Positions 1 through 3,000 of a stretch of DNA of 25,194 nt are shown piece by piece (position 1 is the first letter of the stretch; every line of letters begins with the position of its first letter). Source of the DNA: a virus. Taxonomy: Duplodnaviria; Heunggongvirae; Uroviricota; Caudoviricetes. Location of the stretch: the IMG/VR virus record IMGVR_UViG_2684622543_000001. One strand, 5' to 3'. Made by a program: the position numbers.

Positions 1-3000
1 GAACAGGAGGGACAGCTGATAGAAACAGAAGCCACTGGAGCACCTCAAAAACACCATCATACACTAAATCAGTAAGTTGGCAGCATCACCAGCCTTCTTG
101 AGGCTACCACCTGTTTTCAGGTGTCATTCAGACGTGATTTGCCCCAGATTGGGAAAGCACGCTTTTTTCTCAGCTATCGTCCTCTTATTTTGCCGTTACA
201 TTTCTTTTTGCATTCTAATGATTAATTTACAATAATAATATCGGTAATTATTGAGTAATAATAAATTAATTATTGCAAATGTAATTTAATTCCATCTTCG
301 CGTTATATTCCAATCTTTAATCTCCGCATGGAACAAGTTGCATGCGTGACTATATTAAGACGACTTATAACCACCAAAACATTTGCTTTGCAAGCAAAAA
401 CAGTGACCATTGACTCTAAGAAAATTCCGATCTATTGTTAGGGTCATCAAAGTTACTTAACAGTATTCCGAAATGAAAATACAAAGCAAGCTAATTGTCT
501 TATTAANNNNNNNNNNNNNNNNNNNNNNNNNNNNNNNNNNNNNNNNNNNNNNNNNNNNNNNNNNNNNNNNNNNNNNNNNNNNNNNNNNNNNNNNNNNNNN
601 NNNNNNNNNNNNNNNNNNNNNNNNNNNNNNNNNNNNNNNNNNNNNNNNNNNNNNNNNNNNNNNNNNNNNNNNNNNNNNNNNNNNNNNNNNNNNNNNNNNN
701 NNNNNNNNNNNNNNNNNNNNNNNNNNNNNNNNNNNNNNNNNNNNNNNNNNNNNNNNTTATTCTTAATCCAAGAACATACTCCCTACCTATAGCAAAATCA
801 CTTTTTTAACAAAAGAATAACGTATTTAGGTAATCATTACGAATTTACCCTATAGGTGCTACTGGCCATTCAATATCCGGTGCAGTTGATGTATCAACAC
901 GGTTCAGCAACACCCGATACTTTTTCCAAGCTTCCAGCAACAAGGTTTCTTTCTCCGTTGCGATCTCCAGATCCACAGCATCCTGAAGCGGCGCTATATG
1001 CTCACTGGCTACCTGCATCAGGCTGTTTTTTGTTTCTTCCGCCTCCCGGATCCGGAACAGTTTTTCTGCTTCCGTATCCTTCACCCAGGCTGTGCCGTTC
1101 CACTTCTGAAACTCCCCTTCCGGGGATAACCAGGTGACATTTTCCGGTAATGAGCCGAGTTCAGAAATAAATAACGCGTCGCCGGAAGCCACGTCATAAA
1201 CCGTTTTACCCCGATGATCTTCAACGAGATGCCACGATGACTCATCACTGTTGAAAACAGCCACGAAACCAGCCGGAATATCTGGCGGTGCAATATCGGT
1301 ACTGTTTGCAGGCAGACCTGTATGAGGCGGAATATATGCGTCACCTTCACCAATAAATTCATTAGTTCCGGCCAGCAGGTTATAAATTTTTATGGTCCGT
1401 GCTTGTTCACTCATTCTGAATGCCATTATGCGAGCCTCACAATATAGTTAAATGCGATGTTTTTGACGGTGTTTTCCGCGTTACCAGCAGCGTTAACGGT
1501 GATGGTGTGTCCATGTGAACCAATCGCAACAGAGTGCGTATGAGCACCAATACCGACAGTATGCGCGTGTGCACCCGCAGATGCTGCTGTGCCGGACAGT
1601 GAGTGTGTATGGTTTCCTTCTGAAGATGATTTACCTACCCATTGGGAGGTGCCACTGGTTAATGAGCCACTGATACCAACCTGATTAGTCCCGCTAACTT
1701 GAGTACTCCCTGCCGGAAACATTCCAGTAGGTTGACTCCCGCTATTCGTTCTGGGCCCAGTCTGACTATGTTGGTGGGCCCCAGCTGAACTTGTAGAGCC
1801 GCTCAGACTGTGCGTATGCGCCCCGGTGTTATTCGTGGATTTAGTGCCGTAATCAAACGACGATGTGGTTTTCGTCCCCAAATCCGTACTGGATGCGCTG
1901 GCGCTGTGGGTGTGCGATTTANNNNNNNNNNNNNNNNNNNNNNNNNNNNNNNNNNNNNNNNNNNNNNNNNNNNNNNNNNNNNNNNNNNNNNNNNNNNNNN
2001 NNNNNNNNNNNNNNNNNNNNNNNNNNNNNNNNNNNNNNNNNNNNNNNNNNNNNNNNNNNNNNNNNNNNNNNNNNNNNNNNNNNNNNNNNNNNNNNNNNNN
2101 NNNNNNNNNNNNNNNNNNNNNNNNNNNNNNNNNNNNNNNNNNNNNNNNNNNNNCCGAGGTGTAAAGCTGCGCCCACGGCGACCAGTTTGCGTCGGTCGTA
2201 TCCCGTCGTGAACGAATAAATGCCGGAGCATGAGCACCGCTTGTACCACTCCAGCCGATGAGTAACTCACCTTCGCCAACGGCTGTCATCCCTTTCAGGT
2301 GAATGATATTTCCATACGCTGTTGGATATCCGTTGTTATACACCTCGTATAACTCAAGACCTGCTGCCCCCTGCGTATTGTCTGTCAGCGCGGCTACCCG
2401 ACCTTTTGAAGCCAGATTAACTGATGATACTGCTGTTCCACCTGACGGTAGCGCCCCGATCTCTGATGCCGTTGGCTTATTTCTGGAGTTATAGTCCCTT
2501 CGCCAGCCAGGTGAATAATCTGTTCCGTGATTAATATAGGTAAACTGGGCGTTGGTTGTTCCGCCACCGCTGGATGTGGTCGGAGTGGTAATGCGGATCG
2601 TCATCGCTGACTTTATCCCCATTACTTCAATGACAGCTCCGGCGAGATGAATATTACCGCAGCCAGTATCAGTAATGATTTTATTATTGCCATAAGACCA
2701 GGAACCCTTGCACATCCAGTATGGATGGTTAAATGCTCCCTGAGAATCCAGCCACTCGATAAACTGTGCAGTCGTCCAGTTTCCTGTTGTTGTGCTTACT
2801 GACCCACCGAAGGCACGGCAGGCACCAATATTTTTCGTAAAGGTGTCTTTGCCAGGGATATCCGCACCGTTCTGATCTTTCTGCAGACGTTTCTCAGCAT
2901 TGTCATTGGCTGCTTTTACTGCCTTTGGCGTTGCCGCCAGCGTTTCAGACGTGCTGTTGGTCGCGCTGCTTAGCTGGATTATCCCTTTCTGTGCTGTCGT

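What the first reader, a model, noticed from the sequence alone, without database searches (positions are those of the whole stretch)
1..90. IS1 terminus sits directly against the prophage accessory arm
The first 90 nt are an exact IS1 end, with the 23-bp inverted repeat ending at position 90 and the InsA start reading out of the window. The insertion lies downstream of tfa, in the arm of lambdoid prophages that normally carries cargo, so IS1 may have truncated or replaced accessory genes or the int/att side of the prophage.
Basis: partly seen in the sequence, partly recalled or inferred. Interest (0 to 1): 0.45.

Follow-up and report, generated by a model that had tools for sequence, protein, structure and literature searches.

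The report
IS1 end in lambda-like prophage arm
The window starts inside an ordinary copy of the insertion sequence IS1 in the non-essential arm of a lambda-like E. coli prophage, where IS1 replaced 550 bp of non-coding DNA, a configuration already present in many sequenced E. coli genomes.

Summary
Window 1-90 is an exact IS1 left end: the 23-bp inverted repeat lies at 68-90, and the insA GTG start at 35-33 reads leftwards out of the window.

The same IS1/flank junction occurs in at least 79 complete E. coli genomes and 12 IMG/VR contigs. In all eight complete genomes examined the gene order is bioA-ybhB-attR(lambda)-IS3 remnants-AraC regulator-IS1 (768 bp)-AT-rich spacer-tfa-stf. This is the b-region equivalent of a lambda-like prophage at att-lambda.

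IS1-free alleles exist in 101 complete genomes and in the phages ev099, mEp332 and PhiR70_1. Compared with them, the IS1 allele has no target-site duplication and lacks exactly 550 bp. The lost DNA is non-coding. It includes a fossil attachment junction: 278 nt of yodB-serU intergenic host DNA plus 62 nt of the serU tRNA 3' end.

One IMG/VR contig keeps the same right junction but has lost 189 bp more on the left. That pattern fits IS1-mediated adjacent deletion.

No annotated accessory gene was lost. The lambda att site survives about 2 kb further left, and int lies at the opposite end of the prophage.

The window's left edge is probably a draft-assembly break in a multicopy repeat, so this strain's own left junction cannot be seen. 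This is ordinary, already annotated biology and of low interest.

The parts
1..90 (-). Left (IRL) end of IS1 (IS1A type), cut by the window edge. It corresponds to bases 1-90 of the 768-bp element.
   Evidence: 90/90 identity to the annotated 768-bp IS1A copy in L001. The same junction occurs in at least 79 complete genomes.
68..90 (-). 23-bp terminal inverted repeat IRL of IS1.
   Evidence: Exact match, unique in the window, 0 expected by chance.
1..35 (-). First 11 codons of insA (GTG start at 35-33), reading leftwards out of the window.
   Evidence: Translation is VASVSISCPSC. The RefSeq CDS start at L001 6035 equals window 35.
56..83 (-). Promoter-like hexamers (CTGCCA-16-TATGAT) partly inside IRL, at the position of the known insA promoter.
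   Evidence: Consensus scan on L018, which is identical to the window over 1-506. The assignment to the insA promoter rests on established knowledge of IS1 and was not tested.
91..175 (.). Right junction flank. This 85-nt segment is conserved at the att-proximal end of many lambdoid prophages. Position 91 is the right endpoint of the 550-bp deletion.
   Evidence: Matches of 94-100% next to serU-type att fragments in L002 and L003. Alignment A1 against the IS1-free allele L007.
176..844 (+). AT-rich (25-35% GC) cargo spacer between IS1 and tfa. It holds a 33-aa YncL-like ORF at 473-574, and in relatives a strong intrinsic terminator. An N-run covers 507-756 in the window.
   Evidence: Composition, ORFs and terminator in L018, NCBIfam YncL E = 1.3e-5 but below cutoff. 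The whole 755 nt is 98.5-99.2% identical in phages mEp332, PhiR70_1 and ev099.
845..1426 (-). Tail fibre assembly gene tfa, the last late gene before the cargo arm.
   Evidence: PF02413 E = 4.6e-44. Annotated as tail fiber assembly protein in all relatives.

Best explanation
An intact IS1 (IS1A type, 768 bp in relatives) lies in the non-essential b-region equivalent of a lambda-like (ev099/mEp332-type) prophage integrated at att-lambda next to ybhB-bio. The window catches only its IRL end. IS1 transposed into this AT-rich arm, and an IS1-associated deletion then removed the DNA on its IRR side. Intramolecular transposition (adjacent deletion) is the most likely route. The result is one IS1 without target duplication that replaces 550 bp of non-coding DNA. 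That DNA was 100 nt upstream of an AraC-family regulator gene, 278 nt of captured yodB-serU intergenic host DNA, a 62-nt serU tRNA 3' fragment (a fossil att core) and 110 nt of phage-end DNA. Shown here: the element's identity, the junction, the missing 550 bp, the absence of a duplication and the chromosomal context. Inferred: the order and mechanism of insertion and deletion, and that this window's unseen left side looks like the relatives. The net change is +218 bp, no annotated gene is lost, and the lambda attR is untouched. In relatives, insA/insB read towards the AraC gene, whose ATG lies 206 nt beyond the IRR end, so an effect on that gene's expression is possible but untested.
For: IS1 identity and IRL. 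The junction is present in 79 complete genomes and 12 IMG/VR contigs. Eight of eight complete genomes inspected have the order bioA-ybhB-attR-IS3 remnants-AraC-IS1(768 bp)-flank-tfa. There is no target duplication: the left 9 bp are GCCAATAAG and the right 9 bp are AGCCTTCTT. Two other IS1 copies near the same AraC gene show normal 8- and 9-bp duplications, which serves as a positive control. An IS1-free allele predicted from the two flanks was found intact in 101 complete genomes at about 99% identity. It occurs at the same bio locus in L007 and in phages ev099 and mEp332, with exactly 550 bp between the two junction points. Alignment A1 gives the exact deletion endpoints. The deleted DNA contains the serU fragment and K-12 yodB-serU intergenic DNA at 97.4% over 340 nt. 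IMG/VR contig L010 keeps the same right junction, but its IRR end abuts a point 189 bp further left, 16 nt from the AraC ATG. That is a nested deletion anchored on IS1. Literature: missing target duplications are usually explained by adjacent deletions or IS-IS recombination (PMC11708052).
Against: The window itself holds only 90 nt of IS1, so its own left junction, full length and IS1 integrity are unseen. The two contigs that share its flank haplotype (L013, L018) also stop inside IS1. No intermediate allele (IS1 with a duplication at either endpoint) exists among 5,426 complete genomes, so adjacent deletion cannot be separated from two insertions followed by recombination. The left-junction count (102) and right-junction count (79) differ for reasons not resolved.
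Confidence: 0.85

Rival explanations
1. Two IS1 copies inserted in direct orientation 550 bp apart, each with its own duplication. Homologous recombination between them then deleted the interval and one copy.
For: This gives exactly the observed product, one IS1 with unrelated 9-mers on its two sides. The region is IS1-prone: there are independent IS1 insertions 415 nt upstream of, and inside, the same AraC gene at another locus. The literature lists this as a common cause of missing duplications.
Against: It needs two insertions for the common allele and a third for the L010 variant, which shares the same right junction. Nested deletions from one fixed end are the signature of transposase-mediated adjacent deletion. 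No single- or double-IS1 intermediate was found.
Confidence: 0.25
2. The IS1 end is an assembly artefact: a repeat-collapsed or chimeric contig end with no real IS1 at this site.
For: The window starts 90 nt inside a multicopy repeat and contains three N-runs. Draft-derived IMG/VR contigs end 31-98 nt into the same IS1.
Against: The identical junction is spanned by closed chromosomes with a full 768-bp IS1 and unique sequence on both sides.
Confidence: 0.03
3. IS1 is one arm of a composite transposon that brought the AraC regulator block into the prophage.
For: The AraC gene sits between IS remnants and IS1. The same AraC block occurs at a second chromosomal locus near paoD/yagP.
Against: IS1-free prophages and free phages already carry the AraC block at the same position. 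There is only one IS1, and the other IS fragments belong to the IS3 family.
Confidence: 0.02

Closest known systems
IS1 (IS1A isoform), IS1 family
   Same: Exact 23-bp IRL, insA start and 90/90 identity. Relatives show 768 bp, both inverted repeats and an insA-insB' frameshift CDS annotated by RefSeq.
   Different: Nothing is different in the element itself. Only this copy's lack of a target duplication is atypical, and a deletion explains it.
IS-mediated adjacent deletions and IS-IS recombination deletions. Classic IS1 deletions in the gal region are cited from my own knowledge. LTEE examples are in PMC11708052.
   Same: A single IS is retained, there is no target duplication, flanking DNA is lost on one side, and a nested larger deletion shares the same anchored end.
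   Different: The event was not observed as it happened, so the mechanism is inferred from end products only.
b region (J-to-att arm) of lambdoid phages. The closest sequenced phages are Escherichia phage ev099 (Radostvirus), mEp332 and PhiR70_1.
   Same: Same order tfa - AT-rich spacer - AraC regulator - IS3 remnants - attP(lambda core) - int. Identity over the 755-nt flank is 98.5-99.2%.
   Different: Those phages lack IS1 and keep the 550 bp with the fossil serU junction.
PatE (Z0321, OI-8 of E. coli O157:H7), a prophage-encoded AraC-like acid-resistance regulator
   Same: The AraC gene next to IS1 in relatives is about 99.3% identical in DNA to the AraC gene in the O157:H7 prophage-remnant region between an integrase and tail-fibre genes. 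Its best NCBIfam similarity is to YdeO/GadX. PatE is described in PMC10877973.
   Different: Identity with PatE was not verified. No source names the protein PatE and the primary paper is not held. The gene lies outside the window.

Membership tests
IS1 family insertion sequence | 23-bp imperfect terminal inverted repeats (IRL GGTGATGCTGCCAACTTACTGAT; IRR GGTAATGACTCCAACTTATTGAT) | tested here: met
   IRL is exact at window 68-90. IRR was seen only in relatives (L001 5323-, L006 7205-), because the window ends before it.
IS1 family insertion sequence | Element length of about 768 bp | tested here: inconclusive
   The length is 768 bp in all 8 complete-genome relatives with the same junction. 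It cannot be measured in the window, which holds 90 bp.
IS1 family insertion sequence | insA followed by insB', with the InsAB' transposase made by a -1 programmed frameshift | tested here: inconclusive
   The window holds the insA start and 11 codons. Relatives carry a RefSeq CDS joined from 2 pieces and marked 'programmed frameshift'.
IS1 family insertion sequence | 8-9 bp target-site duplication. This marks a simple insertion event rather than defining the element. | tested here: not met
   The two sides are GCCAATAAG and AGCCTTCTT in relatives. The 550-bp deletion explains this. Control IS1 copies show 8- and 9-bp duplications.
Cargo (b-region-like) arm of a lambda-like prophage | Position between the tail-fibre genes (stf/tfa) and the phage attachment site | tested here: met
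   The window carries tfa, stf, lom and J. Relatives show the lambda att core, P arm and ybhB-bioA about 2.7 kb beyond the junction. Phage ev099 shows attP and int there.
Cargo (b-region-like) arm of a lambda-like prophage | Dispensable for phage growth | not testable with these tools
   This follows from established knowledge of the lambda b region and needs an induction and plaque assay.

The most novel reading that the evidence does not exclude
The 5' region of the prophage AraC regulator (a probable patE orthologue) has been hit by IS1 at least four separate times. The events are a 9-bp-duplication insertion in codon 4, an 8-bp-duplication insertion 415 nt upstream, this allele 206 nt upstream, and a derivative 16 nt upstream that removes the native promoter. 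The recurrent hits could reflect selection to rewire or silence this regulator, as seen with IS insertions upstream of flhDC or bgl, rather than only IS1's liking for AT-rich DNA.
Probability: 0.12. Interest if true: 0.35.

Novelty: already known. Interest (0 to 1): 0.1.

Why it matters
It matters little beyond bookkeeping. It explains why the contig ends here and shows that no accessory gene or functional att site was lost. It also documents a textbook IS1 deletion footprint in a widespread prophage allele that is frequent among poultry, pig and human isolates. The only wider interest lies outside the finding. First, the phage arm carries a fossil serU attachment junction with captured host DNA. 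Second, IS1 repeatedly lands upstream of a probable acid-resistance regulator, which could alter its expression.

Tried and rejected
1. I first read as showing that all 273 genomes with the right flank carry IS1. That was wrong, because an IS1-free match (417 of 507 nt) passes the 80% coverage threshold. Junction-specific queries corrected the counts.

2. An exact junction search of genome contigs gave 0 hits, so the source contig could not be found or extended. The 12 hits in viral contigs do not include a 25,194-nt contig.

3. A left-junction pattern search in viral contigs gave 0 hits.

4. Searches for hypothetical intermediates, meaning IS1 with a duplication at either endpoint, found none. 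The single apparent hit (H191) was a different IS1 insertion inside the AraC gene at another locus.

5. I tried to explain why the left junction is counted in 102 genomes and the right in 79. All sampled left-junction genomes also have the right junction, one with a 1-nt deletion. This remains unresolved and is probably a limit of the search tool.

6. Rfam found nothing in the spacer or in the deleted 550 bp except tRNA-fragment echoes.

7. An apparent frameshift in the major tail gene V was rejected. It is caused by an N-run.

8. Naming the AraC protein PatE could not be verified.

Full report
**Observation.** Window 68-90 is the exact reverse complement of the 23-bp IS1 left inverted repeat. 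It is the only match in the window at up to 3 mismatches, and none is expected in 100 shuffles. Window 1-90 is 90/90 identical to the end of a 768-bp element in E. coli strain 104 (L001 5323-6090), which RefSeq annotates as an IS1A-family transposase with a programmed frameshift. The annotated CDS start there maps to window 35. The reverse complement of window 1-35 reads VASVSISCPSC from a GTG start.

**Context.** The rest of the window is the late arm of a lambda-like prophage on the minus strand. It runs from tfa (845-1426) through stf, lom, J, I, K, L, M, the tape measure gene, T/G, V, U and Z, then the major capsid, S49 protease and portal genes, to the large terminase. Eight complete genomes carry the same junction. 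All have the order bioA-ybhB-lambda att core with P arm and sib-like terminator-IS3-family remnants-AraC-family regulator-IS1-AT-rich spacer-tfa-stf. In strain 104 the prophage continues through lambda-like lysis, Q, O/P, cro/cI, N and exo-bet-gam genes. IS1 therefore lies in the equivalent of the lambda b region, about 2.7 kb from attR on the bio side. int lies at the opposite end of the prophage.

**How common it is.** A 120-nt query spanning the right junction is fully covered in 79 of 5,426 complete E. coli genomes. The left junction is covered in 102, and the difference is unexplained. Twelve IMG/VR contigs also hold the junction. Most stop 31-98 nt inside IS1, as expected for draft contigs breaking at a multicopy repeat. 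Two of them (L013, L018) share the window's three private substitutions in the flank, and L018 also stops exactly 90 nt into IS1. The window contains three N-runs. Its left edge is therefore most likely an assembly break, but the junction itself is real.

**What was interrupted.**
- In relatives, the 9 bp on the two sides of IS1 are GCCAATAAG and AGCCTTCTT, so there is no target duplication.
- As controls, two other IS1 copies near the same AraC gene at another locus have normal 8-bp (AGATTTTC) and 9-bp (CTGAACATG) duplications.
- In IS1-free genomes the left flank continues through about 440 nt into a 62-nt 3' fragment of tRNA-Ser serU. The right flank is preceded by 110 nt and the same tRNA fragment.
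- I joined the two flanks into a predicted ancestral sequence. It occurs intact, at about 99% identity, in 101 complete genomes. One of these is strain JNQH497, at the same bio locus (L007).
- The same arrangement is present in the phages ev099, mEp332 and PhiR70_1, next to a lambda attP core and int.
- In all of these, exactly 550 bp separate the two junction points. Alignment A1 shows clean endpoints.
- The 550 bp hold no annotated gene and no Rfam hit other than echoes of the tRNA fragment.
- 340 nt of the 550 bp are 97.4% identical to K-12 DNA: 278 nt of yodB-serU intergenic sequence plus 62 nt of the serU 3' end. This is a fossil attachment junction from a serU-integrating ancestor, carried inside the phage arm.

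**Mechanism.** One IS1 without a duplication, replacing 550 bp, is the standard footprint of either an IS-mediated adjacent deletion or recombination between two IS copies (PMC11708052). IMG/VR contig L010 has the same right junction, but its IRR end abuts a point 189 bp further left, 16 nt from the AraC start codon. This is a nested deletion anchored on the same IS1 end, and it favours transposase-mediated adjacent deletion from the IRR end. No intermediate allele was found, so the recombination route cannot be excluded. All IS1-bearing alleles share the junction. The window's flank haplotype is derived relative to both the IS1-free and the other IS1-bearing alleles. That is consistent with a single event followed by divergence.

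**Consequences.** The net change is +218 bp. No annotated accessory gene is lost, and the lambda attR is untouched. In relatives the IS1 genes point towards the AraC gene, whose ATG lies 206 nt beyond the IRR end in the common allele. IS1 is known to create fusion promoters (PMC9330008), so an effect on that gene is possible but untested. The AraC gene is about 99.3% identical to the one in the O157:H7 prophage-remnant region and is most similar to YdeO/GadX. It is probably patE (PMC10877973), but this was not verified.

**Verdict.** This is a correct observation of an ordinary, already annotated IS1 copy. It was neither cargo genes nor the working att/int module. Novelty: already known. Interest: low.

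Noticed in passing
window 507-756, 1922-2153, 14635-14715: Three N-runs of 250, 232 and 81 nt. The second lies inside stf. The third lies inside the major tail gene V, where relatives have about 245 nt. ORF calls across them (stf length, an apparently split V) are unreliable. The runs look like scaffold gaps or masking.
   Followed up: partly
window 4614-5096 (-): lom carries a real 83-nt deletion relative to strain 104, with no N bases involved. This gives a truncated 160-aa product instead of 199 aa. IMG/VR contig L018 is 100% identical to the window across this region, so it carries the same deletion.
   Followed up: partly
window 473-574 (+), continuing into the N-run; L018 473-574 and 723-747: A 33-aa hydrophobic ORF (MKIQSKLIVLLNIIIAFILFELLAQKFGLSTLF) weakly resembles the small membrane protein YncL (E = 1.3e-5, below cutoff). 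In relatives a strong intrinsic terminator follows it. It may be a small cargo gene convergent with tfa.
   Followed up: partly
window 885-1083 (-): A full-length Rfam IS009 (RF02111) match at 218 bits lies entirely inside the tfa coding sequence.
   Followed up: no
L007 7205-7754; L026 3451-4000 (phage ev099): Sequenced lambda-att phages carry, inside their b region, 340 nt of host DNA (yodB-serU intergenic sequence plus the serU 3' end). This is a fossil of an earlier serU integration and imprecise excision, and it sits next to an AraC regulator and IS3 remnants.
   Followed up: partly
L006 7205-7972; L027 2793-3560; L010 around 11600-11650: The 5' region of the same AraC regulator gene has independent IS1 events. 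One is 415 nt upstream with an 8-bp duplication, one is inside codon 4 with a 9-bp duplication, and one is a deletion derivative ending 16 nt from the ATG.
   Followed up: partly
L021 11732-24074 (strain 104): In strain 104 the major capsid gene of this prophage is split by a roughly 11-kb insert. The insert carries an integrase, a primase, its own capsid and decoration genes, and DUF262/HEPN genes, so it looks like a satellite or a second element. The window has no such insert: its 350-aa capsid gene is intact.
   Followed up: no
(counts in E. coli genomes): The left IS1 junction is counted in 102 genomes and the right junction in 79. Every sampled genome with the left junction also has the right junction. 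The discrepancy is unexplained.
   Followed up: partly
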